A stretch of DNA of 64,000 nt from contig CAJNYD010000096.1 of NCBI GenBank assembly GCA_905331295.1, forward strand, positions 1-64,000, read 5' to 3'. Source of the DNA: Rotaria socialis. Its lineage: Eukaryota. The notes under the pieces were generated by a model. That model worked only from the letters and a program-made list of their open reading frames with translations. It was not told the DNA's origin and searched no databases. Both the position numbers and the translations under genes were made by a program. This document shows positions 1,311 through 64,000 of the stretch, piece after piece (within the stretch, counting starts at the first letter, position 1; each line of letters begins with the position of its first letter).

Positions 1311-1603
1311 TTAAGGTGGACCCTTTCTCCGGTGATTGAGTATTCTCTGAAACCAAGTATAATATAATGGATATCTTACACTTTACATTAATATAATGAA
1401 GATGAAACCTCGAAAAGGTTGCAATGTCAAGATAGTCGAAAGCAAGTTTACGAAACTTGAATGGTCACATAATTCTATCAGCTATTTCTCTCATTGTCGA
1501 AACGATTATTTAGGCAAAAACTTTAAAAACTATACCGAGCATAGATTTTTATGGGGAAAACCTATGGATTTTGACCAAAAGTTAAAACGATAGCGTCCAC
1601 CAT
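1311..1603. mobile_element. Possible small MITE with short TIRs
   Basis: TTAAGGTGGACC at 1311 and GCGTCCACC at 1593-1601 form imperfect inverted ends; TTAA on the left only. Confidence 0.35.
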
Positions 1604-2079
1604 TACAAAATGAAGAATACACTGGCGTAACGTCGTGCTTATGTTTTCCATACTGTAAAGGAATATTGCTTTTCCTTTTGTTCGACTACAAACCGGGAAA
1701 GGTTCATATATTTTCGGCATATAATAGTAACAATAGGGAAATTTCCAAAGGCAACCATGCAGTAGACATTGTATTCATTTGTTTCTATTCACTATTTACA
1801 GGTTCCAGTTGAATAAAGCTAATCTCTAAGGGTTACTTCCTTTGTTCTATAAATATTTATGTAATAGCTTAGAAATAAAGAAAAAACTCTCTTCGATGCC
1901 TCAACACTTCCATCTCGAAGCAACATTAGAATGTTTATTGTCACGGACAAAGACTCATGATTTGAGCGACAAGAACAATATAGGAATCAATTATGCTGCC
2001 ACTGATGTCTCTTTTATCACTACCATAGAAAGAGTGATCATGTTGATAAGCAATATCAATGATATTTATGGTGAATTCA

Positions 2080-2910
2080 ATGTTTTCGGTTGAATGAGAT
2101 CTATCATCAGCTGATGCAACAATCTCGATCATTTGAATGGCATTATGTAGTGATCATGACAACGATCTCAAACAACTGTATGATCACATGAAGAACGAAT
2201 ACGACAGAGAGGAAACGAATCTTCTCTCTCTTGGTGATGTGTTAAGAAACATGGGAAAATTCGATTTGGCCGAAAAGTACTATCGTCGATGGTTGAGCGA
2301 ACTTCCATCGAATGATCTCTCTCTTTGTGCGTTGTATGAACGTCTTGGTAGGGTTGCTGATGAGAAAGGTGAGTATGATACGAGTCTCGAATGGTACCAG
2401 AAATCACTCGAGATCGATATGCGAACTCGTCCATCCGATCATGTCAGTATTGGTATCACACACAACAGCATCGGTAACGTTCATGGAAAGAAAGGTGATC
2501 GTGTTCGAGCACTCAAATCGTACAATCGAGCCGTGTCACTCTTCAAACAAGCACACGATGAGAATCACCCACATTTGGCCTCCTTTTACAACAACATTGG
2601 CACCATCTATCAAGAAGAGAAGAAGTATTTTGAAGCGCTCGACTTCTATGAGAAGTCACTTGCTATTCACGGGAAGCATCTACCACCGGATCATCCTGAT
2701 TTGGGTGGATCGTACAACAATATTGGCGTGGTTCATCGATATCTTGGTCATTATGATCTTGCATTGGATCATTACAATCAATCACTTAAAATCAGCTTGA
2801 AGTCACTTCCTGCTCAACATCCCGATATTGCAAGTACCTACGTAAACATGGGTCTTGTGTATGAAGACAAGGATGAATTAGAGTAGGTATTGGCATTGTT
2901 AAATAAATTT
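2080..2910 (+). pseudogene. TPR-repeat gene fragment (kinesin-light-chain/nephrocystin-3-like 42-aa TPRs), probably a pseudogene
   Basis: ORF 2137-2886 has five or more repeats of the HPDLA.SYNNIG.VY type. An in-frame TGA at 2134-2136 corresponds to CGA in the paralog at 1-284, and there is a frameshifting deletion near 2100. TAG at 2884 falls mid-repeat (DELE*VLALLNK). Confidence 0.75.
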
Positions 2911-38958: not shown

Positions 38959-39705
38959 TCATGACCAAATGTCTAAATAAGGATAATTGTTGATCGAATT
39001 CTCTCCCATGACTTTATTTCTGGTATTTGCTTGTAACTTTAAATGAATATCGGTATCTTCTTCCATTTCAATGTTCTGCATTTTGTTTTGTCGTGAAATT
39101 TCTTCTATGTTAGAAATGATACTTTTAGTTTCTTTCGATCCTTTCTCCTGTTCTTCACGAAGAATTCTAGATTTTGCAGTTTCAACTTCTCGATTGAGAA
39201 GCTCAAGCTTTTCTTGAAACACATAGTTCATGTCTCTTTCGTACTTTTGTAATTTCTCATGAAGCCTACTCAATTCGATTGATTTCCATTGATCGAGTTC
39301 GATGATATATTTCTGTAACCATTCACGATATTGTCGTTCGTATCCGGATTGTATTTCTTGTGTATAATCTAATAGTCGATCTTGTTCATCTTCTAAATCC
39401 TCGATAATCAGTCCAAGTACACGTTCGGCTTCTTTGGATACTTGTTCGAGTCGCTGTTGAATACTTTCATTGAACAGCACGTGAGCCACATTCAACTTAT
39501 CCGGTAATCTAACTGTTTCGACCCCGGTAGAGATACCAGTCTGTAGATTCATTTTAGCTTTCATTGTCATTTGAACACGTACTAGATCGGAAATATTAGA
39601 TCCAATTTTCTCCGGGTTAGATTCGAAATTCTTTCTTTTCTGTCGATTAGGTAATTTCATTGAGGTTACTCTTGTTGATCGTAGATCTTTTGGTACATGC
39701 TGCAA
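38959..39705 (-). CDS. Uncharacterised helical/coiled-coil protein
   Basis: 248-codon E/Q/K-rich frame (QYREWLQKYIIELDQWKSIELSRLHEKL). A splice acceptor lies at ~39700 and an upstream exon may lie at 40102-40006, but its phase is unresolved. Confidence 0.6.
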   Translation of the reverse strand: MQHVPKDLRSTRVTSMKLPNRQKRKNFESNPEKIGSNISDLVRVQMTMKAKMNLQTGISTGVETVRLPDKLNVAHVLFNESIQQRLEQVSKEAERVLGLIIEDLEDEQDRLLDYTQEIQSGYERQYREWLQKYIIELDQWKSIELSRLHEKLQKYERDMNYVFQEKLELLNREVETAKSRILREEQEKGSKETKSIISNIEEISRQNKMQNIEMEEDTDIHLKLQANTRNKVMGENSINNYPYLDIWS

Positions 39706-41700
39706 ATAGAATTAAGAGATGTTTCCAGTGTTAAAAACATTCGATTGATTTGCCACACAAATGCTGAAAAATGAGAATAATTATCAAGAAAATTCTATTT
39801 TGCATCCGTGCTGTCAAGTGATTAGAAAATAAAGACTAACTTCATGAAATCCTAGTATCGAGTTTTTCTATAGTCAAGATTTTCGAATATTCTTATTCGT
39901 TTGTCTGTTATAGATCCATTTTTATTATGACTGAAATTAGATAGTTAGTCAACTGTGAATAATTATATAGGGAAAACGAGTAAGCAAAGTAAAATATCAA
40001 CTTACTTTTTGATACTGACTTAGAGCGAGCGAGTATCGTTGTTTGTCTATATATTGGTTTGTTACGAAAGGATTTTGCTGTTCTTTCTCTGGTAGAGGCC
40101 ATATTAGTAGTTGTTCTGGTGATTTCTGTTTATCTCTGTCTGGTGTGACTGATCCTCGCGACTAACAGCAGCCCATGATTGAATATTAGATGAACTAAAA
40201 TTCAGACAAGAATTTTCCAACATGGAGTCACGTTCATATTAAAATATGTATATCAGCAATAATGAAGACTTCTCTAACGTAATTGAACTTCGTCGACTTT
40301 ATTGCAATACAAGGTACATAAAGTATCTACGGAGAATTTTTCTTTGTCCATACTCACCATACATTTGAATAAAAATTCTCCTACTTGTCAGAAGAAAACG
40401 GATCCATGGCTTTTTTTTCTTCATAAATAACATAACATCACCAAAGTTGAAATAAGAAAACAAATGAATAATTATAGAATCACAAATGATGAATCTTTAG
40501 AAACGAGCAAAACAAATAAAAGCTCATTATTGAATGCAAAATACTGCAATTACCGAAAAACAAAAACAAAGTTATCAATACAAGAAACAACATAACAACA
40601 GAGTGATAAGGTGAAATAGAAAACAAAAATCTACGATAATACAACCAACAACAATGAAAAATTTATTTATTTATACACCTATGGAATGAACACATCTAAA
40701 ACATCGCAATTCTTTGTTTGTTTTTAATGATTCATCTTGAGACTGTGGGTGAATATGGATTCCATTCACCCACACATCGTCATTACTTTTAGTTATTTAC
40801 AAATCAATTTGATATTTCGCTATTAATCAAAAAAAAATATTAATTCCATCAGTTCGATGGCTTATGTTCAGCTAACATTATTCATCTTCTCAATCGAATC
40901 CTTTCGCGCGAAATTTATTTTATATTATGTGCAATACTTCTAGGCCGGATCGTTTTTTTTTGACAAAACTATTCTTCTCAATAATCTATATACGATTGGC
41001 AGGAAATTTCCCATTATTCATGATAAATAATTTCTATTATATTAACATTGATGTTCCAAAAATGGTCACTTTGAAAAAAAATCACTTTGAAAAAAAATCA
41101 CTGAGAAAATATAAAATACGTCGCATCTGTAAAAGTTTCACTTATTAAATGTATTTGACTATTACTGCTGCTGTTCGTAAAGACAAAATGACCGAATTCC
41201 GTGAATTCTGAAGCATCTATGGATTCAGAACTCAAAAGTTAATAAAGAAGGATTAAAGGAATCCCGGACTACGTGATCCAATCAACTCATGGAACCTTCC
41301 GAATGTCAGTAGCTCAGCGAATTCCGTTGACTTGAGAAACTTACCGTGCGTTGTGGCTGATGATAAAGAAATGACAACTTTCTTGGGTACGTCTGCATTT
41401 GCACTTTTATGCTCAAATAAACAATCATAGTCATCAATATATCGCTCTACATATCCATTGAGTACACCACAACACATCAAGATCCTATTACAACGTGAAA
41501 TCGACACTAGTATATAAATTTACACCTCACGACATGAAACACACAGCTTCATTCCACGCCAATCAGCACCAACATGAAGAACAGGATACTATACATATAA
41601 CCATCCGAATGAGCAGTAGAAACAATTGAAGATAATATTGAATATATAACTACCACAAAATACATGAGAATTTTAACAAAATCCAAACGTTATTTTATTT

Positions 41701-44995: not shown

Positions 44996-45592
44996 TAGCA
45001 AGGGACTATTTCCAAGTGTTTCGCACCGTTTGCTCTAATATTTTGCTCATAGGAAGGATCCGATGAGATTATGAATAGTCTAAAAGATTTCGTGCCATTA
45101 GATTTTTCCTTCGAAGTTATGAGCGTTTTACTGAATTTTCGACCTTGGACAAGGAATTTCGAACTGAAATTTTTCCTAACAATAGATCTCATCGATGTTA
45201 GAACGTTCCAAAAGTTTCAGTTAAAGCTGATACTTTTTTTTACAGATATTGCAGATTGAAGAAAAGTCAATTTTACGATAATTTTTGGAGCATGGCCGTT
45301 TTCTTGAATCTGCAATATCTCTAAAAGAAAGTATCAGTTCTAACTGAAATTTTTGGAATGTTCTAACATCGATGAGACCTATTGTTAGGAAAAATTTCAG
45401 TTCGAAATTCCTTCATACAGTTTTTCTATAAATTCCTTGCCCAAGGTCGAAAATTCAGTAAAACGGTCATAACTTCGAAGGAAAGATCTAATGACACGAA
45501 ATCTTTTAGGATTTTCCTAACCTCATTGGATCCTTTCAATGAGCAAAATATTAGACCAAACGGTGTGAATCACTTGGTAATGTTCCCTCGTA
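44996..45592. mobile_element. Foldback MITE with Tc1/mariner-like TA-CGAGGG terminus
   Basis: Arms 44996-45265 and 45296-45592 are reverse complements along their length; flanked by TA; ends ~70 bp before the ATG at 45665. Confidence 0.85.
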
Positions 45593-45664: not shown

Positions 45665-48600
45665 ATGGCAAAAAGTTCATGGGATCAATTGCCACCAGAA
45701 CTGTTTCAACCGATGAAGAATATGTATGACAATGATCAACATTTCGAGACAGAATCGAAGAAGCTTAATGAGAAGAAAGATAAAATAGTAACTAAAGTAG
45801 AAGATAATCAGAAAGCGTTCGATAATATATTTGCGAAAAGCGATGATATACTACGGAAATCGGAAGAACAAATTGGAGAAATACGAAAGCTAGAGGTCAA
45901 CAAATTAAAGTTGTACGAAGAACAATTAGAAAAATTCAATGCCGCTGATCTTGAAAAATCAAAATTAGATGAATATGAAGGAAATATTGATAATTTACAG
46001 CGTGAACTTAAATTACATGAACAACAAAAAGTTGAACTCGACAAGGAACAAGAAGTAATTACGAAAGAAATGTCTCAAATACAGTCGACTCAAGCTGAAT
46101 TGCGGCGCCAATTAGAGAAAGTCAAAGAAGAACTTCTCAAAAACGAAAATCTTCTCTCGGAAGCGATAGACGAACGTCAAAGATGTGAAAAAAAAGTCGA
46201 AGAACTTCGAAAATTAATCGAAAGCATCGAAGAAAATATCAATAGAAATAAAAAACAACTCGAAGAATTAATGGCAAAACAACGTGAGTTAGAAAATCAG
46301 CGAAAAGATTTAGAAAAGCAAATCGATCAACTAAATGCCCATATCATTAACTTGGAAGCACTTCTGCGAGACAAGGAAGCTAAAGTTGCTCGTCTTGAAC
46401 AAGAAGTTCGCGATTTGCAAGAGAAAATAAAAGATTTAGAAAAAGAAGTTGAGCAAATACGAGAAAAAATCGAAACTGTTAGGGAAAAAATCGAGAAACT
46501 CAATCAAGAAATGGTCACAAGTGAGCGGAAATTTGAAGAACTAGAAAGAGAGCGGAAAGCGTTGGAGATGGAACAACGTCAACTTGAAAAAACGCTTCAA
46601 ACTCTGGAAAACGAAAAAACTGATCGAACAAATAAACTCAACAGACTTCAGCAAAAGTTATCAGCGATAGAGGATTTATTTAATCGTGCTGAAACTAAAC
46701 TGGCACAGCTACAAGTGCAAAAGGAACAGCAAACAGCAGCGCTCGAATCACTTGAAACTGAACGTAATCGATTGGAAGATCAAAAAATTAAACAAACTGA
46801 TGAAACGAATGTCTTACGTGAACAAAAAGAAGCTGCAATCCAAGAGCGACAAACGGCCGAAAGTGAACATAAAGAAGTTGAGAAAGCGTTGCAAAATGCA
46901 CAACAAAAAGAACGTGATTTAGATCGTCAACGTGAAAAGGCAATAAGTGATGAAAGACGTATTCAATCACAACTTGATCGAGCTATTAATGAAGAGAGAG
47001 AAGCAGAAAGAGAGATGAACGCTGCTAAATCTCGACTGCCTGGTATGGAGTCAAAAGAAACGTTGTGGAATTTGGTTGGCGCGATCTTTCCGCCGTTATC
47101 AGGTTTCGCCCAAAGCGAAGTACAAAAAGTAAACAGAGCTCGCAATGAACTGGATGCAGCTAGTAGGCGATACGATGACAAAAAGAAAGAAGTAAATGAC
47201 CTTCGCAATAAACACTCAGAAGCACAAACTAATCGTAAGGATGCTGTTAAACAATTTGAAAATGCAAGAAAAGATGTTGCAAGTCAGCAAAGAACTGCCG
47301 TAATGAAATTTCAACAATTTAACGTGTGTAAAGCAAAGACCGATCGCTTGAGTGAAGAACATCGAAACTCACTTCGAAGACAACAGCAAACAGAAGCAAG
47401 CTTTCGTATGGCTTCTATTCATCTTCAAAAAGCTCAGACACAACTTGCCAGTACTACTAATGAAGTACAACGATATGAACAAGAAAAGGCAACACATGGA
47501 AATCAAGTTAATGACTTGAAAAATAATGCAGAGCAGATGAGAGATGACATCAATCGGCATCAGAGAACTATTGATGAACATCGCACTCTCATGGAAGAGA
47601 GACGAGGAATTTTAATGGAAAATAAACTCCAATGTCAACTAGAACAAACTAAGATACAACTTCTGAAAGGTATGTGCATATATACGTATGTGATTTCTTA
47701 CTATACGAATTCGAATTAATATCTTTCGCATGATAGTCGAGACTTCTAATCTAATATTTATCTATAAGATACTTTTCATATAATAACACGGAGGCATTTC
47801 GTTTAAGGTGAAAACGAAAATCTGAAACGTCAACATGGTGATTTAACCAACACGGAAAAGGCCAGAGTCCGAGAAATGACATACCAAAACGAAGTACTTC
47901 AATCAGAATTGAAAACAGCTGATGAATTGAAGAACGACATTAGTACGAAGAAAGAAAACTTGAAAACTCTTACAGAACAATTGGTTGTGACCAAAACAGA
48001 CTTGGAAAACGTTGCTATAGAAAGTAAACGACTGAAAGACGAAAAAGTCGCGCTTAGTCAAGAACTTCAACAATCTAAAGCCGACTTGGTTCAAGCCGAA
48101 CAGAAATATCGTGAAGCTAATCGAAACTATCTCGCACAAAAGAATAAGGCCGAAACCCTCCGCCAAAATGCTGAAATGTTAGAGAAACGAGATGTACAAA
48201 TATCAAGTAATTTACAATTCGTTCAAGAAAAATTGAAAAAACACAATCTACAAATTGATGAAAAGAAAGTTGCAGTCAGTGAAACTACTGGCAATATTAA
48301 TGCTGAGCGATTAAGGTTACAGAATGCACAGCAAACAGTTGAAAAAGCGCAGCAAGATCTCGAAACAATGAAGGAAAGTATAAAATCCATCAACGAACAA
48401 ATCGACAATAAAAATAAGAGTTACAGTGAATTAAATAAGGAGCTCGACGAATGCCACAAGAGCGCAGACATAACCGAAGCAGCAAGAAAGAACAATTTGG
48501 AACGCCTTGAAAAAGCTAATATCGCATTGTTACAACTTCAGGCAGACTATGACGAACGGACGAATCAATATGCTGAGAAAATAGAAAATATTGAGAAAAT

Positions 48601-48688
48601 CAAAAATGCTAATAAATTAAACCAACCTGTTCCGCAAACAGTATCTAACAACAACGTTGTGAAAAAACAAGAAAATAAACTAACATGA
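45665..48688 (+). CDS. 961-aa long coiled-coil protein with a central hydrophobic segment
   Basis: Exons 45665-47669 and 47808-48688 (phase-1 GT-AG intron). Continuous heptad-like E/K/Q/L sequence; the only apolar stretch is LWNLVGAIFPPLSGF (aa 467-481). Confidence 0.85.
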
Positions 48689-48905
48689 TCTATGCATCTA
48701 TATGCTTGACTAGAATAATCCATTTTCCATTGCTTTCTATTCTTTATTCTTGAGCGATTTTTGCTTTGTTTTATTTTATAGTATTTATTTTGGAAGTTGA
48801 ACTTTCGGATAACAACTACTCAACATAAATAGTTTTTTTTTGTTTACATTAATTATCATGGTTTTGCTTTTTTTTTATAGATAATTGCACATTTAGCTTT
48901 AAAAA

Positions 48906-51900
48906 ATGTCAGACAATAGTTCTGATGATGACTTTACCCCGGAAGCATTTCAAGAAAGATCAACAGACACGACAATCAATTTTGTTGTACAAAAATTACT
49001 TCCACCATTGGAACCGGTTACTTTAAATTCGATTGTTCTGAATATTTATATTAAATTTGACAAAGGCAAACAAGTAGAGGCATTCATAGAAGAATTAAAG
49101 CAACCAAATGAAAATCTTCACAAAGGCGCTGATGGACAATATGTTTCAACCCTTCATCAATATGCACTCGAATCAACACGGGGTCCAATTGATATGAGCA
49201 ATCAAAGCGTGCGTTTGATCTATCAACCGAATTTGTTTACACGAAGAAATGACGCATTTGGACCGTGGAATTTCAATTATTTACTAACACTCCTTGCACT
49301 CGACTATCAATGTGACCACGATAGTAAATTTCAATTTCCTCCTGTCTGGAAAACAAATTCAAAAACACAAGTTCATGTGGTTGTTAAAAATATTCAAAAC
49401 GAAATAACTACATCGCCGGAAACTGCAAGCTCGACTACAGTGTCTACAAAAAAGGAAGATGTTACACTCGAAAGTTTTCTAAAAACTATCTGTCGACAAA
49501 ATCAACGCGACGAAAACAGTGTCACAAGTTGGTTAACAGCACTTCAAGGTACGACTATTTACATTTGAGATCGACTTGAATTTTATGAATGCTCAATCTT
49601 GGCTTCTATAAAGCTACACAAATCATTAACTCTGCCAAACGAATGAATATTTTTCTATTTTTTCTAGAGGAAAGTATTACTACTGTTCAGCATCTTCGCA
49701 GTGCAGTAGCTAATGAAAGATGTTGGGAGAGTCTGCAATCACCCAAACTGTTAATTAAACAAATGATACGAGATTATATTCAATTGAATGATTCTTCAAG
49801 CAAATCTCAAGAAACTCAAAGCCTCTATAAAGATTCCGATGCAACTCTAATCGGTGACATTCATCGAATTCGACGTTATTTTCATTACGTTACTAAAACA
49901 GAACAATATATACCCTATCTTGATCCTGATGCAGTGGATAAGACCATTAATGAAATTCGAAAAACATATGATGATGATGGAAATGTTCTACACAATATTC
50001 ATCAATATTTAAAAACATTTTGTATTAAAAATAAAAACATCGATTTAGAAGCACACAAAAAGCGAAAGCAAGAATGGACTGACGAACAAAAAAGATTGGA
50101 AGAAGAAGTTAAAACATTTCGTAAGGAAATTTTAATCTCTGAAGAAGAAGCTAAAGGAGCACAAACAAAAGTTAGAGTTTGCCAACAGCACTTTATCAAT
50201 GCTGAAAAAGAAAAAGAAATTGCCTTGAAGGAAGCTGAAAAGCTCAATGCCGAAGCAGCTACCTTAAATTGGAGTCAGGATCTAACAGCATGGACTAGAA
50301 AACGAGACCAAGCAAAAGAAAAAGTAGGCAAAGCTACGCAGGACGTTGAAAAAGTGCAACGTCAATTGGAAATTGCACAAGCCAAACTTGCTGTACACAC
50401 TGAACCCATACGTCGAAAGAAAAATACAATTGCTGAAAATGAAGAAAAAATTCGAGGCTTAACGACTTTTCTCAAGATCGATCCAATTGAAGCACAAAAA
50501 AAATTAAATGTTAAATACGGACGAGGATTACTTCTCTATGGACCTCCAGGAACAGGTAAATCTGAACTATTAAAACGAGCAGCTACATTTGCTGGTATTA
50601 CGATGACTACAACAGCTCTAGCTGCTGGCGAATTAAATCGCCCATATGTTGGTGAAACTGAACGATTGCTTGTTGATATAATGTCTCGAGCGAATACGAT
50701 TCCATATTTGATTTGCGCTATGACAATTGATGAGATCGATGGACTTGTTCCAAAAAGAACAAATAATGCTCAACAATCAAAAGTCGATGGAATTAGTGTT
50801 TTACTTTCTCATATTGAAGGTGTTAAAAATATTCAAAATTTAATTGTACTTGGTGCAACTAATCGAAAAAATATGATGGATGAAGCATTTTTACGTCGGA
50901 TGCAATCAAAATGTTTTGTTGGTCGACCATCACCACAAATTCGAAGAAAAATGCTTGAACCATTGCTATATCTTGATGCGAATATGTTTAATGAGAAATG
51001 TATGGATTTTCTTGTTAAAATAACAACAAATTTTAGTGGTGCTGCTGTTGGTGCATTAAAATCTAGTATTGTTGTTGCCATGGATAGTTATAAAAGTACA
51101 AATTTAACAAACAAAGTGTTTCTTGATCTAGCTGATAATACAGCACGAGAATTTAGTTGTTGGTTTGGCATTGGAACATTACCAGAGATTTGTCGTCTCT
51201 ATCCAAACATATTTTCATCAAATGATCAGCAAGAAAAATATTCACTTAAATTACCAGATAGTCTTCCGACAGGTCGTATTCTTATCGATTTAGACAGTCG
51301 AAAACGTTATATCGAATTCAAAACTGAGCCAACAATTGAAGATGATCTAGATCAAGAAGAAACGTCTACAATGACTTTAGTTTCACGATTTATTAGTGGT
51401 TGTTTCAGTCGAAATATTGATGCGATTCAAATAATTGATTTAAATTTTTTAACAAAAAATAATGCATTTGAAGATAGTGGAAAATTTGAACTTTTAACAA
51501 CAATATTCGATGGTAATCAATTATTAAAATGCTTCTATTATTTTCTTTTTGTTTAATTTTGAATATTTTCTATTTAGAATGTGAAGAATACAATCGATCC
51601 ATGCTAGTGTTTGATATTGATTCGTTGATTATGCTTAATGTGACTGATTCAGCAATGTCACCATCAACTTCGATATCGAATATACAATTATATCAATGCA
51701 TTCGAGAAAAATGTAAGAGAGCTGTTGTTGAACGAAATTCAACGGATGAAAGGGTAAAAATTATTTTTCAAATAAGATTTGAAAAACATTTGATTCTTTC
51801 TGTTTAAAGACACAAACGGATATGACGTTTTGGAAAGAAAAATGGATAGTGATGATTGTTAAAAATCCATATCTTCGTAAACACTTAGTTGATGAGATCG

Positions 51901-52481
51901 AATTTAAAAAGACACTTCAGGAAACTCAACAAAAACATGAAGATGAACAAAAACGAATCGATAATGAAACCGTTACATTATGTCCTAAATGTTTACAAAG
52001 TTATATTCCATCCAAAGTCGACCATGGAAGTTGTCGGTATCACAATGGATACATTATCGATCTTGACAATCCAACTAAGATTTTGACTCAAGATGACGCT
52101 CAACAAATAATACAACGCGTCGCATTAGACGCAGCTATGACTACTAATAATGAAAATCCGAATCAAAAGGCAGCAATGCCGTTCTTGTATTGGGCCTGCT
52201 GTTCAAGTACTTTTATGAGTGGCCAACCGTGTAAAATCGGTACTTGTGGACTACCTGAAACAATGAAAGGACAAACAATCGGTCCAAATGAAGATTTGAT
52301 ACTTTTAGTTCAAAAACATTTTCAGGAAGATCAACAAATTAAGGAAAATGCTGCTAGACTTGTAAAACATTACCAAGAGAAAAAACGATCTATACGATCA
52401 ACTGCACAAACAACAACCAATATTCGAGCTCCATCATCATCATCGTCATCGACAGTTTCTTCACTCACCCAACGAAAATAA
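48906..52481 (+). CDS. 1111-aa NSF/classic-clade AAA+ ATPase with coiled coil, degenerate second AAA-like region and C-terminal Cys/His zinc module
   Basis: Exons 48906-49548, 49668-51512, 51578-51753, 51810-52481, phase-consistent. RGLLLYGPPGTGKS (Walker A), YVGETE pore loop, IDEIDG (Walker B), GATNR..MDEAFLRR (SRH), MLVFDIDSL, CPKC..Y..CRYH.G...YWACC..PC. Confidence 0.88.
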
Positions 52482-52731
52482 TTACTTGCATAATCATATT
52501 GAATAAATGTATCAAACTTATTTCATAACTTTCATGCTCTTTCAATTCATTCGTGTCTTTTTAATTTCCTATCTTGTAAGATTTGAGTTCTAGACAATGA
52601 AGTCATTTAAATATAATAGATCTTTGATTCTAATGGTAAATCAATCTTCGTAAATTCGTTTTGTTTTTATTTTCTAGAAAGAAATTTTTTGTTACTTCTA
52701 GTTAATAATGGAATAGTTTATCCATATAATA

Positions 52732-55700
52732 ATGACTCAAGAAAATGTTATTACAAAATGTGACGAATTAACGATAGTTTTAAATCATATATTGGATCGT
52801 GATGCTGATCCGTATAAAGCGCAAAATCTCATCGATGAACTAGTCAATATGAGTTCTTCATTGACCAAGGCTGAGACTAAAAAAGTGCTTCGTAGCATTT
52901 TTTATCCATATGGCACCCTCGTACTTACAAATCGGCATAGGGTACGAACGACGAAAGAAGATATTCGAACTAGAAATATACATAAAATCATTGTTTCACT
53001 ATTTTTTTTTGTTTTCTTCAAATTCATTAGACGCTCGCTATGAAAATGGCAAAACTTATGGAATGGTGGTTAAAATCAAAATCAAATGATGGATCACAAA
53101 GACCTCTGATGGATTTAATATGTGAACAACGAATCATTTTAGTAAGAAAAAACTCCGATGGTTCAACTACTCTCGAGTGAGTATGAAAACAATTATTTTC
53201 GAAACAGAGATTATAAATCTATATGTATTAAATTGTCTTTAGACAGCAAGAAAATCCAAATAAAACTATGGATCTCTCACATTTGATGTTGTTATTTAAT
53301 GTTTATGATTGTACAGGAAGTGAAATGAATGCATTAATCAAACTTCTCATCGAATGTTTACTATATACAGAAAGTAAACTGGGTGATATGCGACAATATT
53401 TAATTGAACCGGACTGCTTTAAATGTTTATGGCTACTTTATTTCGATCCATTACGGATTAAACGCGTTCTTGAAGGTGATGAGCTAGTACAAAGAGAAGC
53501 AGTTAACAAAGAAGAATACCAATCTTCATCAAAACATCAAATCTATATTCAATGGACAGATGATCTTAAAGATAAATATATTGATGGCAACATTACAAAA
53601 CGTCAACGTGTCAATATGATTGTTCACGAAGCATTGAATGCTTGCAAAAGAAAACAACAGCTACTATCACTATTGCAAAAGATACAATTCAATCGAAGCC
53701 ATACGATTTATGTATTGCAAACTTGGATAAACTTATTTCGTCATTTGATTAGTATAAAATATGTAGATATTGAGATAATTGAACTTGTATTCGAACGTCT
53801 ACCAGATCTGAATATAACAAATGCTTCTGCTGAATTAAATCAATTAATTCTTGATCTTCTTGAAATGTTACCACAATTTAATGATGCAGAACAACTAGTT
53901 TATGTTGGAAATCAAATAGTTCGAATGATTCAAAACTTAATGGTTAGCGAAAAACTAAAGAATAAAATCGAGCTTGTCGAAGAATTAATGAAAAGAATTT
54001 GTGCAAGTACGCCTGTGAATAATATACAAGGTCATTATTGCTTCTTCTTTTTACTCAAGGATCTTATTCCATTTTATGATAAGCATAATGAGATTCGATT
54101 AATTAAAAGAATTGATCACGAAACAATATTATGGTATGCTGATGACATTCTACAGAAAAAAACTGTCAGTCAACCAATGGCTGAACATTGCCAGACTCTT
54201 TTAACTCTATTGCAATATGTAACAATGTATACTGACGATAATTATCTGGAAGATTGGTTTCAACGTATTCAAATTCCAAGTCATCAAAATGCTGAATTTA
54301 TTTTTCAAATGATAACATATTCAATTTATTCAAGTAGTACATTAGCAACTTACGTACGACAAATTACAGATGAAAAAATCAATGCGTTTTTGAAATGTAT
54401 TCAAATACCGATAGCTTTCAAATTTATTTCTATTTTATTAACTATCATTGAAGCGTTAGTTAATAGCGCACAAGCACATATTATTCTTTTTCGATCGGAT
54501 GATTTCCATCGAATATTAGAAGATTGGCTACTATCAGAAACATCACCATCAATAATCATGCGGCTTTTAGTATTATTATTTAATGTTGCTGATTCCGGAC
54601 ATAATCAATATTCTGTCAAAATTGCCGATTTTTTTCTTGGTAATTATGCATCCAAATTTTTTTCAATTCACTTCGAAGATCAAAGTCCATTTGCTAGTAT
54701 TATTCGTTTTCTTTTATCGATTTCGAATAACAATCAAATCAATGGTTCTTCTTTACATGATAAAGTTGGACATTTAATCAAAGATCTGTTTCTACAGATT
54801 GAAGAAATCATCGATGAAGATGATGATAATCTTTACAAAACATTCTCATTGCATCTGCTTAGTCTCAGTAATGAGATTACTGACGAACAAGTACGAACAA
54901 AGCTTGTTATATTACTTTCACCATTCATACCCGATATGATGGCTTTACTAGGTCAATCTGATCAATTAAAATATGCAAGTATCAAGCTTCTTGGTAAGAT
55001 ACTTGAATTATCTGAAGACGAGCATTCTTTATTTGCTGAAAATTTTCAATATGGTTCTATACATGATGATACACTTAATCATACAAATGATACTCTACAA
55101 CAGCAACAACAACAGCAACCCAATAATCTCTTCTTCAGCTCAGAAGTGGCAAATCGATTAGAGATTCCTCTTGTACGGCATAGTGATTTTATTCATGGAA
55201 ATCAATTCTTGAAGAAATTAGAACAAGTTGAACAGCGAATAGGTGATAAATTGCTTCGTGAACGTTTAACACAACAACGTTCGGAAAATTTAAATCTATC
55301 AATCAAAGACGACCAATTCAACCATCTTGTTCTCACTCCGACAACTTGTGAAAATATATTTAAAGTACTTGAAGTACTTGATGATCCAATTCCAATACTA
55401 CTCGAAGGTAACACTGGCGTAGGTAAAAGTGCTACTGTCATGGAAGCATTTCGACAAGCATGCATGTGCAAACCTCAACTACAATCTCGTACATTTTTTC
55501 GATTTAATATGTCATCGCATGTTACCGTTGATGATCTTCTGGGCAAAGTGATGCTTGCGTTCGATAAAGAAACATGCATGACAAATTTTCGATTTGTTCA
55601 TGGCCTATTTACTAGAGCTTTTGTGAATGGTCATTGGATCCTATTTGATGAACTTAATCTTGCTCAAGACACTGTTCTTCAAGCCATTGAATCAGCACTA

Positions 55701-58700
55701 GATACACGTCGTCTAACCATTAATAATAATAGTTCGACTCAAGATTCGATAATTGTTTACCAAATGCATGATGATTTTCGATTGTTCGCTACACAAAATC
55801 CTAGTACTGGCTTCTTTAAAGACAAACGTGAAAAATTATCAAGTTCATTTCTCAGTCGTTTTCGACCATTGGTCTTTACTGAATTACCTGATTTTGAATG
55901 GCGTGACATTGTTCAACAACGACTAAAACCTTATCTCGGCAATGAAGCTGATCAATATGCAGATTTACTCGTGACTAATTTCAATAACAAAATAAAAGAA
56001 GCTTTATACGATTCAAGAAAAGGGTTCGCTGAATCTGGACCTTATGCTGAAATATCTATTCGTGAACTATTAAAATGGGTTAACCAGCTGATTTGGCAAA
56101 AACAACATGGATGTTGGCCAACTAATGCACAGGATCGTGGAAATATGCTCAGTTTTAGTGCGTGGTGTATCTATGGTGCACGATATCGTACTAATGGACG
56201 TACTATTGTTGAAAATATTCTTACTGACAATGGAAAGGGTGGCTGGGGCCGTCCAGCTCTCCAAAATATATCTATTCGTGTTGATCAAAAAGAAGAGAAA
56301 ATCTTTCTCGATAATATTCAATGTTCAGCGCGCATTAAAATTCAACCAATTGCTAATCCTGAACTTGAATGGTTCAATGTTTTTAAGATGGCTGGTCTCG
56401 AAACCATAAAATTCAATGCAGACATTTGGGCCATTGCATTCAAAGTTCACAATGCTGTTCATAAAATGTTGATAAATATTGACTTTATCTATTTACATGG
56501 TATCTATCGTATTGATTATTCTTGGTTATGGCATTGGCTTACTTCAGCTGCTCATCATCTTAATCAACGAAATGAGTTTGCAATACACGGCTGTAAATCG
56601 TACATAAGTCGTTTTCGCCATATCAAAGCACAAAATAAAGTGCGCTCATGCTTCATTGAACATTTCGAAGATGCCAATCTATCGGAAATAACATCAAAAG
56701 ATATAATGATACAACCAGATATGCCATATATCCTTACAGATCGTACCTTACAAACAATGAAACAAGTCTCTTTCGATATGAATATTAAACAACCCATATT
56801 AGTTACGGGTCCAGAAGGCTGTGGTAAATCTGATCTTTTACTAGCTCTTACTTGGCTTAATGGTCAACAAGTGAATCAATTGAATATTACACCAGAAACG
56901 GAACCATCAGCACTGATCGGTCAAATTCTTCCAAATGAAGCAAAAGATAAAAATGGTGCCAACAATGGTAAAATGTTAGATTGGAACCACGGTTGCGTTA
57001 CACGTGCTTATATCAATGGGCAATGGGCATTACTGGATAATTTCAATACAGCAGAAGCATCCGTGTTAGAACGACTTAATCCTATCCTTGAAGAGAAACC
57101 AATGCTTATACTGACTGAAAATGGTGAAATTGACGAACAAAACATGCATGACGATTATCGTCTTTTCGCAACAATGACACCACCTGATTCACGTTATTCA
57201 TCATTGAACGTAGGCGAACTTTCACCATCACTTTATAATCGTTTTGCTACTGTTCATATGAATGACATTGATAACAACTCTGATGAATTACTTCAATTAG
57301 CCAAAGGTCTTCTTTCCGATGATGTTGATTCACAATTAGCTGTTGATCTTTGCCGAGAAATCCTCGATTTTTTATCAAAAAATGCGGCGAATATTTCTAA
57401 AGTAACTCTACGTAATTTAGTACGCTTTTTTGATAGCACATATCGTCTTTATCAACGTTTTCAAGATAAATTTAATTTTGTTTCTATTCTTTGGACAGCT
57501 TATCATGTTACTATTGTCAATCAAATTAAAGGAGAACAAATAAAAATTCAAATGACTGAATCAATTAAAAGATTTCTTCGCCGAATGCAACCAAACTGCC
57601 AACTACGTCAACTACCATTCACTGATTGGATTCAACAAACAGATGAACATATTTTAACTTCAACTCGATTGAATTATGCTAATGCTGTATTGGGTGCTGT
57701 AGCTTGTAATATTCCTCTTCTTTTAGAAGGTCCTGCAGCTGTTGGTAAAACGACATTAATTGCGCATCTATGTAAAACTCTTGATAGTAAAAAAATGAAT
57801 CACATATCAAGTCAACAAAAACCAAAACTTGAACGAGTCAATAACACAGATACAACAACAATACAAGATTATTTAGGAACATATTTGCCTGTTAATGATG
57901 GATTTATTTTTCAAAAAGGTGCACTTTATCGTGCAATGGAAAATGGTTGGTGGTTTCTTGCTGATGAATTTAATTTAGCTGATCCGTCAGTAATGAATAT
58001 ACTTTTCCCATTACTTGAAGGTAAAAATTCGATTATGATACCAACAAGTGGAAAGATTATAACAGCTAAACAAGGTTTTCATTTTTTTGCTACACAAAAT
58101 GATTCATCTTATGCAAATAGACATCAACTACCGATATCATTACGTAATCGTTTTCTTGAAATACAATTTGATGAATTTCCTGAATCCGAACTATCAGAAA
58201 TTCTTCTTCGACGCAATCAATCCGATAAACAGAAACAAAAAAACTTGATAAATCAAATAGCGAATTCATTAGCTTCATTCTATCATCAATTGATTCAGAC
58301 GCCATCACGTATTACATTTCGTGAACTTATCAAATGGATTCGTCGGTATGAATTATTTTCATCTGGAAAGGATGTTTGGCCTATGGTTGGCGCTTCGCTT
58401 CTAACAAGTAAATATCCATTGGAGTCACCCATACGACAAGGCCTAATCAACGATTTAAAAACGAAATGGCCCAATATTAGCATACCGACAGGTTCACAAA
58501 TCGAAATAAAGGATGTTGGCGGTGGACTAGTTCGGTTTCGAGAAAATGATCTTCATGTTGATGTTAAGACAAGCGTTCTCTCTCAAAGTATCATATCAAC
58601 ATGGCCTCTAACATTTCAACGTACGTTAACTCGTATTGCTCAAGCTGTTCATGCCAATGAACCTGTACTTCTTATTGGCCCAACCTCATGTAAAACATTA

Positions 58701-61700
58701 ATTGTTGAAACATGGACTCGAGTATTGAATCGATATGATGAACTTGTCATAATACATTTAACACCTGAAAGTGAATCTGCGAATCTTGTTGGTGAAATTC
58801 AACCATATACATTTCTTGATCTACTTAAACGATTGCCAGCAATGGCTGAACGAGTTGTTCATCGTTTTCGAATTCTTTGCCAAAATCAGAATAGTGTTGG
58901 CAAATTATATCCCAATGATGAAGATTTTATCAATTCTCTTACGGATTTAATTACAAAAGATTTTAACGATGAAATCGATCAATTTGAAAAAGATTATTCA
59001 CATGAAAAAGAATTAAATCAACAAAAGGATGCACTTCATAATAATTTTGCTACGCTCAGAGAATACACTGAATCCTTCATGATGCCTTCATTTGATGAAA
59101 ATTCTATTGGTAAACTCGAAAATATGATTGAAACAATAACTAATTCAACAGAACCTCAACGCAAGTATACAGATTATGAATATTCTCCTCGTCTTTATCG
59201 GTATGATGATGATGATGATGATGATAATGTTGATAATCCTTTATCTAAAAGAAATCAGTCTACTATGAAATCCTATGAAAAATTGCAGTTAGAAGACGAT
59301 GGTTATGATGATTATGGATCAATCGATATAATATCAAATACTACGATCAATATCAAAGATAACTCGGCTACTGAACCTAATATATCTGTATGTCCAAAAA
59401 CAACTTGTGAGTTGTACGATGATTATGATTTAGCTTCTGATGTTGAAGAATCTGAATCAGCAGCAACGAATCAACGAGATTCTAATGAAATTACAACATC
59501 AAGTCAAAATACTTATCCAAATCTTATCAATAGTGCGGTGGGGGCGGCGTCATCAAATGTATTCGAGTCTCATTTTGAATCCCTTCCTATTCGGACTGTT
59601 AATCAAACTGATTTTCTTCCTAAAATTTACCAAACCGTTCGAAATATTCAACGTGGCTTTGAAAAAATGATTATAGATGTCAATTATTCTTCATTTTGTT
59701 CTACAGATGCAACACTTGTTGATTATCAAGCGAAATTTTCTAATGCATGGGAACGACTCAGTGATGAAAAGGTCGATCGAACTAGACCAATATTTATCTT
59801 TAATGATGGACCAGTAATAACAGCAGCAAAACGTGGCGGGATTCTTTTTCTTGAAGATCTCGATTTACCTAGTCAAGCAGTTGTTGAACGGCTTAATTCA
59901 ATGCTTGAACCGGATCCAACGTTAACACTTAGTGAAGATGTTACAACAGTAGCCGATAAAGGTCAACTTGATATATCTCTTTCAAAAACATTTCAAATAT
60001 TTGCTAGTGTTCATCAAGACGAAGCCCATCAACTACTAAAATTAAGTCCATCGACACGATCACGTTTCACTGAAATTCATGTACCAGCTTACAGTAAAAA
60101 TGAATTAGAAGATCTCGTTAGATTTGCATTGAATCAGCCAAATTCAGATACAAATGAGATTGCTATATTAGTTGAACAAATGTTTTCCTTACGTGAAAAA
60201 CTACGTACGGATCCTGAATGGAAATTACATAATGATATTCAATTATTATTTCGTTGGATAGATTTTATTAAAAACCATCACACGTCACTTTCATTAACAC
60301 ATCGAATGTTACTCGGTGCTCGTTTTTTCTGTTTTGATTTATTATCTACAGCACGACATACTATTCTGTTTGACGAATGGCTAAGTTCGTCGGAAAATTT
60401 TCATAACCTTAAAGAATTTAGTTTCATTTTTAAACAGCCTGATGCATTAGATGGCGCAATAACACTCGAATCAATTCAATCAAATGAAAGAATATTTCCG
60501 TTTGACGTCCACAGTGAGTATATTGGATTACGTTATACCGGTGTTCGATATTCATGTAGAAATGACAAAGATCTACAAATTATTCTTAATAAACTTCGTC
60601 AAGATTTCTTCTGTGTACCAACGCCAACATTAATCAATCAAATTGCACGTGTTTTTGCTGCAACATCATCAAAAGCTCCTCTTCTACTCGTAGGACCACC
60701 AGGAACTGGTAAAACTCAAGTAATAACACAAGTTTGTTCATTGTTAGGCAAAGAATGTGAAAGAATAAATCTTTCAGCAAATACGTCACTTGATCAACTT
60801 ATTGGTTGTATCATTCCACGTTGTGTAAATGGTATTCGTATTTTTCAATGGCAAGAAGGTCGAGTCTTATCAGCAATTCGAGCACAACATTGGATTCTAT
60901 TTGATGAATTAAATTTAGCCACTCCAGAAGTCCTCGAAGGTTTAGCTCCATTGTTCTATCGTGGTATAACTCATTATACAATTCGTAGTACTGGTGAACG
61001 AGTACCCGTCAATGATGTTCTTATTTTTGCTACAATGAATCCATCAACAGCTGGTGGTGGTAGAAGTAAATTGCCTCGCTCAATTAATAACTTATTTACT
61101 ATTGTTCAAATTGATGATTATTCCGAAGAGGAACTTCGGATTATTCTCAATCAATTATTTTCATTTGATCTTGAACATAACAATATCAATATGGCACAAC
61201 TTGATCAAATATTTAATATGCATGTTGCATTTAAATTACGTATCAGTGAAGGTGCTCTTGGCCGAACAGATGAGCCATATAAAATAAATTTACGTGACCT
61301 ATCAAAACTTCGTGATGTTTTTCGTCATTCAATAGACAATCAATTATCTCATTATGAATTTCTTAATACTATTGTTGATGAAAATATTAGTAATGAAGAT
61401 AATAATAATAATGAGACAAGAAAAATAACAAACGAGTTAAGTTCAACTTTAGATTCATCTACTGCACGTCTATTATCAATAAGAAAATTTGCACAAGTTG
61501 TTTATGCATGTCAATTTCAAGGCGAACAAGATTATATTAAAGCTTGTGAAATAATCAATCGTAAATTTCCCATCAGTGATAAAATTGAAGAGAAAAATTG
61601 TTCGATTGATATGTCATCACCAGCTGTTGTTCGGATCGGATCGATTTATATCAAAACAGGTTCCGAAGAGCCATCGACAACTGCTAATATTAATTTAATT

Positions 61701-64000
61701 CATACAAAGAAAACAATTAGTCAATTAGAATCACTAGCTGCCGCATGCCAATCGAAACGAACGATTTTACTTGAAGGAGATATTTGCACACGAAAAACAA
61801 CGCTCGTAATAGAATTAGCGCGTATAACACGTCATCGTTTAATCATAATTCCACTTCATGAAAATTATGAAACGACAGATTTAATTGGTTCTTGGTTACC
61901 GAATGTTGATCAAAAACGAGAACATCCATTATTCAGTAAAATTGAAATATTATTTAAACAAATTATTAAACAAATTCTTCTTCGTATTATACCATTATTA
62001 TCAGCAGATCGTAAAGAAAATGAATTTGATGAATGTAAAAAAATTCTACGTTCACGAACGTTGAATGAAAATTTAACTCGTGATGAACTACTTACTAATG
62101 AAATTAATGCATTAAAAAACATGATTAATTTATTGAACAGGTTTAGTAATGTACCTGGTGATGAAGCAAAAATATACGTTTCATGTTATATTCAACAAGC
62201 CATGGATTACATGAATAAACTTCGAGAATTTCAATCAAATACAGCACAAGAAATTGGTTTTACATTTGTTGAATCTGAGTTTGTTCAAGCTATTCGTGAG
62301 GGTTGCTGGGTTTTATTTGATAATGTTAATAGTGCGCCATCTGAAGGTCTCGAGAGATTAAACTCATTGACAGAAGATAATCCGGTATTATCATTATATG
62401 AATTTGCTGATGGACAAATTTTAACTAAAAAAGATAATCCAATAATATCATCGTATAAAAATTCCAACGGACAAATTTTAACAGAGAAAATCGGAATCAT
62501 TCATGAAAATTTTCGTTTATTTGCAACAGCTAATCTTAATCGAATTTATTCGAATAAACTTTCATCGGCATTTCTTAATCGAGTTATTCGTATTTGGTTA
62601 CCACCAATTGATGAATGTGATGAAAAAGATCCAACAAAAAGTGATCTATATGAATTAGTTTCTACTCAACTAATGAGTATTCCAGCTGGCAAACAACTTG
62701 CTCATTTATTACTTCTTATACATATTCATGTAAAGCAATACGTTAAAGATGGACAATTGGTTTATCCAACTGATTATCGCATTAGTTATCGTTTATTAGA
62801 ACAATGTGTTCGAACATTAATTTCTCTCGTTAATAAAGGTATTCATCCTGTTGACGCTTGTTATTCGGCAGTTATTCGTTCATATGGTTCATCTTTATAC
62901 AAGGAGCAACAATACCGATTTTTTCTTAAAGAATTACAAAAAACGATCGATAAATTAAATCTTCACTCTCCATCAATGATTTTTTCAACTCCATCTAACG
63001 AATCTGATGAAAAACGAGAACGTCATATTCAAGAAGAAACAATAATTCGTTTAGAATTTGTTGAATTCGAACGAATTTTCATAGAATATATTTTTAATTT
63101 ATTCAAAATTCTTATTCAAGATGAAAAAATGATTCATAAAACACGTAATCTTTTTATTTTATTTATCAATGAAATTCTCCTTCCAATGACAACAAACGAT
63201 TCTCAATTAATTCAATTAAAACAAACACTTCTAACAAAAAATGATGTTGACGTAAATCTTTCATTGATTTTAAATGAACTTGTTCAACAGAGAAAAATTC
63301 AACTTGAAAATTATAATGTCAATCTATCGAAAGCTGTAGAATTATTATGTGAAAAAAAGTCAATATCGATACGTGCAGCATCCGAACAATTATGTTTATT
63401 ATTAGATCGTTATATTCGTAATACATCATTCAATGATGCTAATCGACGATTAGAATTTCTTCAACGATCAATTCGAATTATTGAAACGTTTCATGATTTT
63501 TTTAGTTCAACTATATTCGATGATTTCAATCTAACAACTAGTATTAATCAACTAAGTACAGTAACCATTCGATTATTACGACCATTATTAACATTTAAAG
63601 ATCGGTTCATTTCGTATAATATGTTAACCGATACAGATTTTCTTCATATTAAACAACAATATTTTCAAGATACAAATAATGATTATAATATAAATGCAAG
63701 TCTATTAAAATCATTCGATCGTGTTCAATCATTTCCAATACGATCAGCACGAAATCACATGAGAAAACTTGTTGAACGTTTCATTAATGATGTTGATAAA
63801 CAATCGAAAATAAGAAAAACTATTCAACATTACGGAACAATATTAGAATGGATTCGAATACGTTGGACATTTGATGATTATTTAACAAACTCTATTCATA
63901 ATGTTTTACAGAAAAATGTTTCAATTACGCGACATTTTATTATCGAATGTGAATTAAAATTTTCGTGCACAGAATTAATTAGCGAAATATCAAGAATTAT
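52732..64000 (+). CDS. Giant midasin/Rea1-like protein with six tandem AAA (AAA_5/MoxR-type) modules; continues beyond the window
   Basis: Exons 52732-52941, 53031-53176, then 53243 to >64000, with all checked motifs in one frame. Walker A motifs: GNTGVGKS (~55407), GPEGCGKS (56808), GPAAVGKT (57729), GPTSCKT (58677), GPPGTGKT (60693), GDICTRKT (61776). Midasin-type GHWILFDELNLA, FRLFATQNP, ERLNSMLE, GGGRSKLP. Confidence 0.88.
62376..62489 (+). repeat. In-frame 57-bp tandem duplication within AAA6
   Basis: DNPVLSLYEFADGQILTKK / DNPIISSYKNSNGQILTEK. Confidence 0.85.

What the first reader, a model, noticed from the sequence alone, without database searches (positions are those of the whole stretch)
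45665..64000. Operon-like trio: coiled-coil rod + NSF-like AAA ATPase + giant midasin-like six-AAA protein
Seen: three large genes on the same strand separated by only 217 bp and 250 bp. They have 1, 3 and 2 introns respectively, whereas neighbouring housekeeping genes are chopped by many small introns. They follow directly after a TE-dense block, and none looks like a standard single-copy ortholog. Established: classic-clade AAA ATPases (NSF, Vps4) dismantle helical bundles; six-AAA ring motors (Rea1, dynein, RNF213) pull on or coat large substrates; bdelloids acquire and cluster foreign genes. Inference: this may be a co-inherited mechanochemical module in which the rod is a filament or membrane spike remodelled by the two ATPases, possibly a cell-autonomous defence or membrane-attack system.
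Basis: partly seen in the sequence, partly recalled or inferred. Interest (0 to 1): 0.85.

Follow-up and report, generated by a model that had tools for sequence, protein, structure and literature searches.

The report
Rotifer rod-and-two-motor gene cluster
In bdelloid rotifers, a gene for a long rod protein predicted to fold as a hairpin keeps turning up beside a gene for an NSF-like ATPase, and at this locus the pair is followed by a giant, uncharacterised cousin of the ribosome-assembly motor midasin; the three likely form one ATP-driven remodelling machine, possibly for defence, but binding and co-expression are untested.

Summary
In detail: three same-strand Rotaria socialis genes, 217 and 250 bp apart, with 1, 3 and 2 introns.

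Gene 1 is a 961-aa coiled coil, predicted to be an antiparallel hairpin with a hydrophobic tip. Gene 2 is a two-ring ATPase closest in fold to NSF/Sec18 and Cdc48, with intact D1 and degenerate D2, expanded in bdelloids (39 clusters). Gene 3 is not MDN1. It belongs to a separate midasin-paralog clade (bdelloids and scattered protists and algae) whose catalytic Walker B survives only in rings 1, 3 and 5. Longer relatives reach about 8,300 aa with three or four vWA domains.

Rod-ATPase linkage is well supported: all 8 of 39 ATPase models with a long extension carry a rod, in three genera and both ATPase clades. ATPase-giant adjacency is inferred from accession order in three species, but these are orthologues of one locus. 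A non-rotifer contig holds three giants and no such ATPase.

No expression or binding evidence was obtained. Defence is inference. Verdict: a real, apparently undescribed module with a two-gene core and a probable third partner.

The parts
45001..45588 (.). MITE-like high-copy inverted-repeat element ending 76 nt before gene 1; probably not part of the system
   Evidence: arms of 159 nt (89%) and 115 nt (93%); very high contig depth
45665..48688 (+). Gene 1, rod: 961-aa coiled coil, exons 45665-47669 and 47808-48688; predicted antiparallel hairpin of about 70 nm (465 residues x 0.148 nm); arm before the tip net -20, arm after it net +8
   Evidence: AlphaFold2 of exon 1, pLDDT 83, helix break at 475; fold matches are hairpin coiled coils
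47060..47116 (+). Hydrophobic tip of the rod (residues 466-484), at 0.49 of the chain length
   Evidence: hydropathy maximum; helix break
48689..48905 (+). 217-nt gap with a pyrimidine-rich AG acceptor ending at 48880 and no consensus donor; candidate trans-splice site (weak)
   Evidence: 94 of 1000 shuffles give such an acceptor, 51 of 1000 without a donor
48906..52481 (+). Gene 2, NSF-like two-ring ATPase, 1111 aa; exons 48906-49548, 49668-51512, 51578-51753, 51810-52481
50036..50512 (+). Antiparallel coiled-coil stalk just before D1 (residues 338-496)
   Evidence: model; VIA-align
50528..50923 (+). D1, classic-clade AAA with Walker A, Walker B, sensor 1 and arginine fingers invariant in 32 of 32 family rows
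51266..51900 (+). D2, degenerate second AAA ring without a Walker A lysine (approximate bounds)
   Evidence: structural alignments of about 485 columns to Sec18/NSF D1-D2; motifs
51981..52247 (+). C-terminal Cys/His cluster, likely zinc-binding (the label CHORD-like is recalled, from no call)
   Evidence: CxxC, CxxH and CC conserved in 31-32 of 32 rows
52482..52731 (+). 250-nt gap with AATAAA at 52502, acceptors ending at 52677 and 52701, and three possible donors
52732..64000 (+). Gene 3, 5' part of a giant midasin paralogue; exons 52732-52941, 53031-53176, 53243 to beyond the window
55390..62650 (+). Six concatenated MoxR-clade AAA modules. Walker A near 55398, 56799, 57720, 58677, 60684, 61776. 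Walker B reads DE, DN, DE, ED, DE, DN. About 390 residues lie between Walker A and B in ring 4

Best explanation
This is a conserved bdelloid gene cluster whose core is a rod gene paired with an NSF-like ATPase gene, here followed by a giant midasin paralogue, and the three products likely act as one ATP-driven machine that would assemble and take apart the rod, most plausibly on a membrane in cell-autonomous defence. Shown: the gene structures, the domain content, the separate giant clade with its alternating catalytic pattern, and the recurring rod-ATPase adjacency. Predicted: the rod folds back on itself into a hairpin of about 70 nm with a variable hydrophobic tip. Inferred: the tip touches a membrane or a target; the ATPase forms a hexamer and threads the rod through its active D1 ring, with D2 as scaffold, as NSF does to SNARE bundles; the giant grips partners with three or four vWA/MIDAS domains and pulls with a ring of three active and three passive sites. 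The defence role is the weakest step.
For: 8 of 39 bdelloid ATPase clusters have an extension of 300 aa or more, and all 8 are rods. They come from Didymodactylos, Adineta vaga, A. steineri and two Rotaria species and fall in both ATPase clades, which are about 30% identical. Three clade-I rods are clear homologues of gene 1 (BLAST E 2e-58 to 2e-24; local scores 658-846 against 357-384 reversed). ATPase and giant accessions are one or two steps apart in R. socialis, A. steineri (two assemblies) and A. ricciae, with matching contig lengths in the first two species; 4 such pairs among 4,895, 0.09 expected. In the rod model, pLDDT reaches 89 or more from about residue 281, where the partner arm begins in a hairpin centred at 475. 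Top folds for the ATPase are Sec18/NSF and Cdc48. Both ATPase families are multi-copy in bdelloids. Bacterial conflict systems combine MoxR, vWA and a half-inactive tandem classic AAA (PMC7159879, section 21).
Against: The three species with ATPase-giant adjacency hold orthologues of one locus, so plain microsynteny could explain it. A 6.9-Mb eukaryote-like contig has three giants but no family ATPase (best 37 bits, against about 160 for true distant members), and neither rod nor ATPase matched in their flanks. None of 48 Rotaria sp. Silwood giant accessions neighbours one of 24 clade-I ATPase accessions on the same contig; clade-II accessions were not looked up. R. sordida has ATPase-ATPase tandem pairs with no gene model between them, and one A. 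steineri model has the rod after the ATPase. Clade-II rods resemble gene 1 in layout but barely in sequence (475-535 against 400-463 reversed). The merged models may be annotation artefacts, which show adjacency but not fusion. No toxin or effector domain was found in the scanned parts of the relatives.
Confidence: 0.4

Rival explanations
1. Rod plus NSF-like ATPase is a real two-gene module, and the giant is an unrelated neighbour kept by ordinary microsynteny.
For: Giant adjacency is seen at one orthologous locus only. Giants occur without the ATPase on a non-rotifer contig. Other bdelloid giants have no known ATPase neighbour.
Against: The giant starts 250 nt after the ATPase stop, and the order appears kept between Rotaria and two Adineta species. 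Both neighbours are unusual, expanded AAA families. Neighbours of most paralogues could not be seen.
Confidence: 0.3
2. The trio works together but in a structural or housekeeping job, such as ciliary assembly, vesicle tethering and fusion, or membrane repair after desiccation, with the rod as a long tether recycled by the ATPases.
For: A relative of the giant carries HYDIN/CFAP65-like Ig domains. The ATPase is NSF-like. No effector domain was found. The named non-rotifer holders are protists and algae, which by recall have flagellated stages.
Against: Many divergent paralogues per genome and variable rod tips fit conflict genes better. No relative from another animal was among the named hits, though only 6 of about 45 non-bdelloid representatives were looked up.
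Confidence: 0.2
3. The genes are cargo of a large mobile or foreign DNA block and travel together without working together.
For: Few introns, a MITE-like element directly upstream, patchy distribution.
Against: The locus appears orthologous across genera. GC3 of genes 2 and 3 (0.18) equals that of the vigilin-like neighbour. No long ORF lies in the 5 kb upstream. Catalytic motifs are strictly conserved.
Confidence: 0.07
4. The giant is the ordinary ribosome-biogenesis midasin (MDN1/Rea1).
For: Six AAA_5 modules; best solved relatives are midasins, E 1e-113; UniRef labels it Midasin. A canonical MDN1 in R. socialis was not looked up directly.
Against: Separate clade, SH-aLRT 100. Walker B of rings 2 and 4, essential in Mdn1 (PMC5116814 passages), is DN in 57 of 65 and ED in 43 of 48 family rows, against DE in 60 of 61 and 66 of 66 canonical rows. 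No ring-2 insert. Relatives have no D/E tail and several vWA domains. Several paralogues per genome.
Confidence: 0.02

Closest known systems
Midasin / MDN1 / Rea1
   Same: Six concatenated MoxR-clade AAA modules, long helical linker, C-terminal vWA/MIDAS; about 26-30% identity in the ring.
   Different: Separate clade; catalytic glutamate in rings 1, 3 and 5 instead of 2-5; no ring-2 insert but 276-464 residues between Walker A and B of ring 4; no D/E tail; HYDIN-like Ig domains; three or four vWA domains; about 8,300 aa; multi-copy.
NSF / Sec18 (and Cdc48/p97)
   Same: Tandem classic-clade D1-D2 fold with intact D1.
   Different: Only 16-21% identity in the top structural alignments; D2 has no Walker A lysine; own N-terminal region, coiled-coil stalk and C-terminal Cys/His cluster; multi-copy family linked to a rod gene.
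Bacterial MoxR-vWA-FtsH ternary conflict systems (Kaur et al. 2020, PMC7159879)
   Same: MoxR-clade motor, vWA, a tandem classic AAA with one dead ring, and helical partners encoded together.
   Different: Animal genes with introns; MoxR and vWA fused in one giant chain; the dead ring is second, not first; no Ubl system or effector seen; homology of the parts not shown.
7,479-residue midasin-like gene of Rotaria magnacalcarata (Nowell et al. 2021, PMC7943196)
   Same: Bdelloid giant of unknown function with about 25% identity to midasins over about 1,000 residues (passages); likely this family (not tested).
   Different: In the passages read it appears only as an LTR insertion site, with no family, architecture or neighbours described.
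ESCRT-III/Vps4 and PspA/Vipp1 (recalled)
   Same: Helical hairpin with an acidic/basic split paired with a classic-clade AAA disassembler.
   Different: The rod is four to five times longer, has no family match above cut-off, and polymerisation is untested.

Membership tests
MDN1/Rea1 | Six tandem MoxR-clade AAA modules | tested here: met
   six AAA_5 stretches
MDN1/Rea1 | Walker B glutamate in AAA2-AAA5 (PMC5116814) | tested here: not met
   window DE/DN/DE/ED/DE/DN; family counts
MDN1/Rea1 | Helix-2 insert in AAA2 | tested here: not met
   Walker A-B spacing 64-79 in 13 of 13 family rows, against 156-189 in the 8 canonical proteins listed
MDN1/Rea1 | D/E-rich linker and a single MIDAS at the C-terminus (PMC6920918) | tested here: not met
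   tested on relatives because the window ends first: D+E maximum 0.17-0.23 (4 proteins) against 0.46-0.55 (6 proteins); 3-4 vWA motifs
MDN1/Rea1 | Falls inside the canonical midasin clade | tested here: not met
   (14 canonical rows on one side, support 100); animal MDN1 rows were not identified among them
NSF/Sec18 | Tandem classic AAA rings with catalytic D1 | tested here: met
NSF/Sec18 | D2 with an intact Walker A (recalled) | tested here: not met
   no GKT/S at the D2 P-loop position
NSF/Sec18 | SNAP-binding N domain | tested here: inconclusive
   the N-terminal region was not folded alone; whole-model searches were dominated by other parts
NSF/Sec18 | Orthology to NSF in a tree | not tested
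   the tree held no NSF row
MoxR-vWA-FtsH ternary system | MoxR-clade AAA coupled with vWA | tested here: met
   fused in relatives of gene 3
MoxR-vWA-FtsH ternary system | Tandem FtsH-type AAA, first copy inactive and second active | tested here: not met
   the order is reversed here
MoxR-vWA-FtsH ternary system | Linked effector, peptide-modifying or Ubl genes | tested here: inconclusive
   none in scanned parts; DNA downstream of the giant was not available
RNF213 / dynein | E3 ligase module or microtubule-binding stalk, and sequence kinship | tested here: inconclusive
   the PDB sequence search listed only midasin, NorQ and CbbQ; no RING in scanned parts
SL-resolved eukaryotic operon | Same-strand genes about 250 nt or less apart | tested here: met
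   217 and 250 nt; PMC12460157 used under 250 bp
SL-resolved eukaryotic operon | Spliced leader on downstream genes or a polycistronic precursor | not testable with these tools
   no raw RNA reads were offered; bdelloids do trans-splice (PMC1925144 passages)

The most novel reading that the evidence does not exclude
Bdelloid rotifers carry a trans-spliced operon for a three-part mechanochemical defence machine: a 70-nm membrane-tipped hairpin, its own NSF-like disassembler, and an 8,000-residue three-stroke midasin paralogue with four MIDAS grips. It would be a eukaryotic counterpart of bacterial MoxR-vWA-FtsH conflict systems, built from two AAA families that are spread through protists and algae.
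Probability: 0.25. Interest if true: 0.9.

Novelty: new variant of a known kind. Interest (0 to 1): 0.72.

Why it matters
Concatenated six-AAA motors in eukaryotes are usually counted as dynein, midasin and RNF213 (recalled). This locus points to a further lineage with a different catalytic pattern and several substrate grips, now labelled 'Midasin' in databases. It also gives a dedicated NSF-like ATPase whose probable substrate is encoded next door, which makes the biochemistry directly testable. If the defence reading holds, it would be a new kind of innate immunity in an animal group whose pathogen resistance without sex is a standing question.

Tried and rejected
No whole genome is held for the window, so neighbours in other rotifers were inferred from merged gene models and accession order, not from DNA.

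Rod searches: the homologue search returned nothing, and Atlas hits were all under 0.9. The Atlas gave no usable hit for the ATPase N-terminal part.

DNA scans: the ATPase alignment returned only generic AAA genes in metagenome and viral contigs; the metagenome scan stopped after 1 of 64 parts, so it says nothing about absence. The giant alignment in viral contigs gave one single-domain hit.

Expression: no RNA holder was listed. Two guessed-RNA runs gave only short low-depth pieces; this is no evidence either way. In PMC11258130, Supplementary Data 1 (expression) was too large to read; 13 of 16 held files were searched for midasin terms without hits. That unseen table may bear on the defence claim.

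Complex prediction of the rod base with the ATPase N-terminal half gave no verdict (score 0.00, alignments not used).

Dropped rows: one accession pair (Silwood, 22 apart) because the two contigs differ in length; a joint 51576-55097 in run X2, taken as a low-complexity match; P0285, a long intermediate branch, left out. A charge-register scan of the rod gave no clear optimum.

The 'bacterial' giants were rejected as prokaryotic evidence: the G001 flanks hold fragmented eukaryote-type genes and a retrotransposon-like frame (read by eye). Horizontal transfer was considered but is not shown: the sister of the bdelloid clade is unresolved. Earlier-findings look-ups found nothing relevant.
Full report
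Source and observation. Gene 2 is 100% identical to a Rotaria socialis protein, so the window is bdelloid rotifer DNA. One public contig spans 45548-59191, though that run may be the window's source. Upstream lie a MITE-like element and small palindromes; the frames of 90 aa or more between 40000 and 45600 are only 91-114 aa long.

Gene 1, the rod. It is a 961-aa coiled coil with no Pfam family above cut-off. AlphaFold2 on exon 1 (668 aa, 8-row alignment) gives near-continuous helix with breaks at 234-247 and 475. Confidence reaches 89 or more from about residue 281, the point where a hairpin centred at 475 gains its partner arm in the truncated model. Foldseek matches are generic antiparallel hairpins (Rad50, MukB, chemoreceptors, dynein stalk; TM-score at most 0.27), which supports the shape and not kinship. 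The hydropathy maximum is at 466-484, mid-chain; the arm before it is acidic and the stretch after it basic. All 7 related rods examined share the charge pattern, and 3 of 7 have their hydropathy maximum mid-chain. The other clade-I rods have an aromatic motif at the equivalent place (read by eye).

Gene 2, the ATPase. The model (pLDDT 74.6, 32 rows) has an N-terminal mixed domain, a small helical bundle (SAM-like by eye, untested), a coiled-coil stalk, two AAA rings and a Cys/His tail. Top folds are Sec18/NSF and Cdc48 over about 485 columns, and Sec18 is the only two-ring AAA among the 50 VIA rows. D1 motifs are invariant in 32 of 32 rows; D2 lacks Walker A. Among proteins of 1072-3060 aa there are 39 bdelloid clusters in two clades. 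Two unnamed proteins outside those clades share D1 (about 160 bits) and, by eye, the D2 and Cys/His motifs. It works like NSF by fold but fails the D2 test for membership.

Gene 3, the giant. Six AAA_5 modules lie in the window. Relatives extend to 7,386-7,954 aa, and frames of 8,329 and 8,353 aa occur on contig G001. Their C-terminal halves hold HYDIN-like Ig domains and three or four vWA domains with DxSxS-type motifs, and no D/E tail. In a D2-D3 tree of 69 rows (7 bdelloid, 48 other family, 14 canonical; thinned from the 94 rows, P0285 left out), canonical midasins lie on one side with support 100. Walker B in the family is DE 57 of 59, DN 57 of 65, DE 62 of 63, ED 43 of 48, DE 40 of 41, DN 30 of 36. 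In canonical proteins it is ED 35 of 40, DE 60 of 61, DE 63 of 66, DE 66 of 66, DE 66 of 66, DN 54 of 63 (68 proteins in each set). Mdn1 needs Walker B 2-5 (PMC5116814, passages). The family lacks the ring-2 insert, has a long ring-4 insert, and its rings 1 and 2 best match canonical rings 3 and 4. Named non-rotifer members are Hondaea, Chlorarachnion, Epipyxis and Bryopsis; only 6 of about 45 non-bdelloid representatives were looked up. The window gene's own C-terminus was not seen.

Linkage. Of 39 ATPase clusters, 8 carry an extension of 300 aa or more, and all 8 are rods: 7 in front, 1 behind (two of the 8 are probably one locus). They come from three genera and both clades. Whether true fusions or merged annotations, they show same-strand adjacency. 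Clade-I rods are homologous to gene 1; clade-II rods are alike in layout, with marginal sequence scores. ATPase and giant accessions lie 17, 37, 26 and 17 apart in R. socialis, A. steineri (twice) and A. ricciae. One step is mostly 14-21, judged from pieces of one split gene. Four of 4,895 pairs remain after dropping one on differing contigs, against 0.09 expected. This is a proxy, not DNA, and the R. socialis pair is the window's own locus. Both trees show these genes to be orthologues, so this is one ancestral arrangement.

Against a fixed trio: contig G001 (filed as a bacterial MAG, eukaryote-like by its genes) has three giants, no family ATPase, and no rod or ATPase match in their flanks. 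R. sordida has ATPase-ATPase pairs. The Silwood giants have no clade-I neighbour among the accessions held.

Operon. The spacing fits the range used for chaetognath operons (PMC12460157, passages), and bdelloids trans-splice over half their transcripts (PMC1925144, passages citing earlier work). Both gaps hold a strong acceptor near the next start, the first without a donor. Shuffles give such an acceptor in 94 and 39 of 1000 cases, and mononucleotide shuffles understate T-runs. This is a weak hint only.

Mechanism. Most likely the ATPase is the dedicated disassembler of the rod encoded beside it. Classic-clade two-ring ATPases thread helical bundles through D1 (established knowledge of NSF and Cdc48), and co-duplication implies partnership (inference; about 0.75). 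The giant would add a MIDAS-gripping motor, as MoxR-vWA pairs do. Whether it belongs to the same machine I put at about 0.6. A defence role rests on gene-family expansion, variable tips, patchy spread and the analogy with bacterial MoxR-vWA-FtsH systems (PMC7159879, passages and section 21). No effector domain was found.

Literature. Searches found no description of either family or of the cluster. The one related mention is a 7,479-aa midasin-like gene of unknown function (PMC7943196, passages). PMC6431247, PMC6920918, PMC11573180 and PMC3495828 were read as passages. For PMC11258130 I saw the listing, the supplement descriptions and term searches only. The library lacks most subscription journals.

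Verdict. A real and apparently undescribed module: a firm two-gene core, a probable third partner that is itself a distinct midasin lineage, and an untested role. Interest 0.72.

Noticed in passing
L163-L165, L171-L176 (G001, contig C1, about 232-400 kb); L162 (G002): Records filed as bacterial MAGs hold giants of this family. The G001 flanks look eukaryotic (fragmented eIF3m-, phosphatase- and USP-like genes and a retrotransposon-like frame, read by eye), so the DNA looks misfiled; G001 has three giants within about 170 kb.
   Followed up: partly
P0010 (A. vaga) and P0012/P0199 (Rotaria sp. Silwood1): Both join a rod directly to the ATPase stalk at nearly the same profile position (426-430), dropping the N-terminal domains. 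These may be real fusions; they are not sisters in the tree.
   Followed up: partly
   Followed up: no
window 55390-57300: Rings 1 and 2 of the giant match canonical rings 3 and 4 better than canonical rings 1 and 2, which hints at a three-fold repeated pair or an internal duplication.
   Followed up: partly
window 38959-39711 (-): 250-aa helical ORF with no Pfam hit; it recalls tardigrade CAHS-like desiccation proteins (recalled, untested).
   Followed up: no
window 1-2900: Two similar TPR gene copies on opposite strands.
   Followed up: no
window 45665-48688: GC3 of the rod (0.29) is higher than that of its neighbours (0.18); cause unknown.
   Followed up: no
runs X5 and X8, record of 26,795 nt in X5: A second, collinear giant copy at about 80% DNA identity in conserved stretches exists in the same species.
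   Followed up: no
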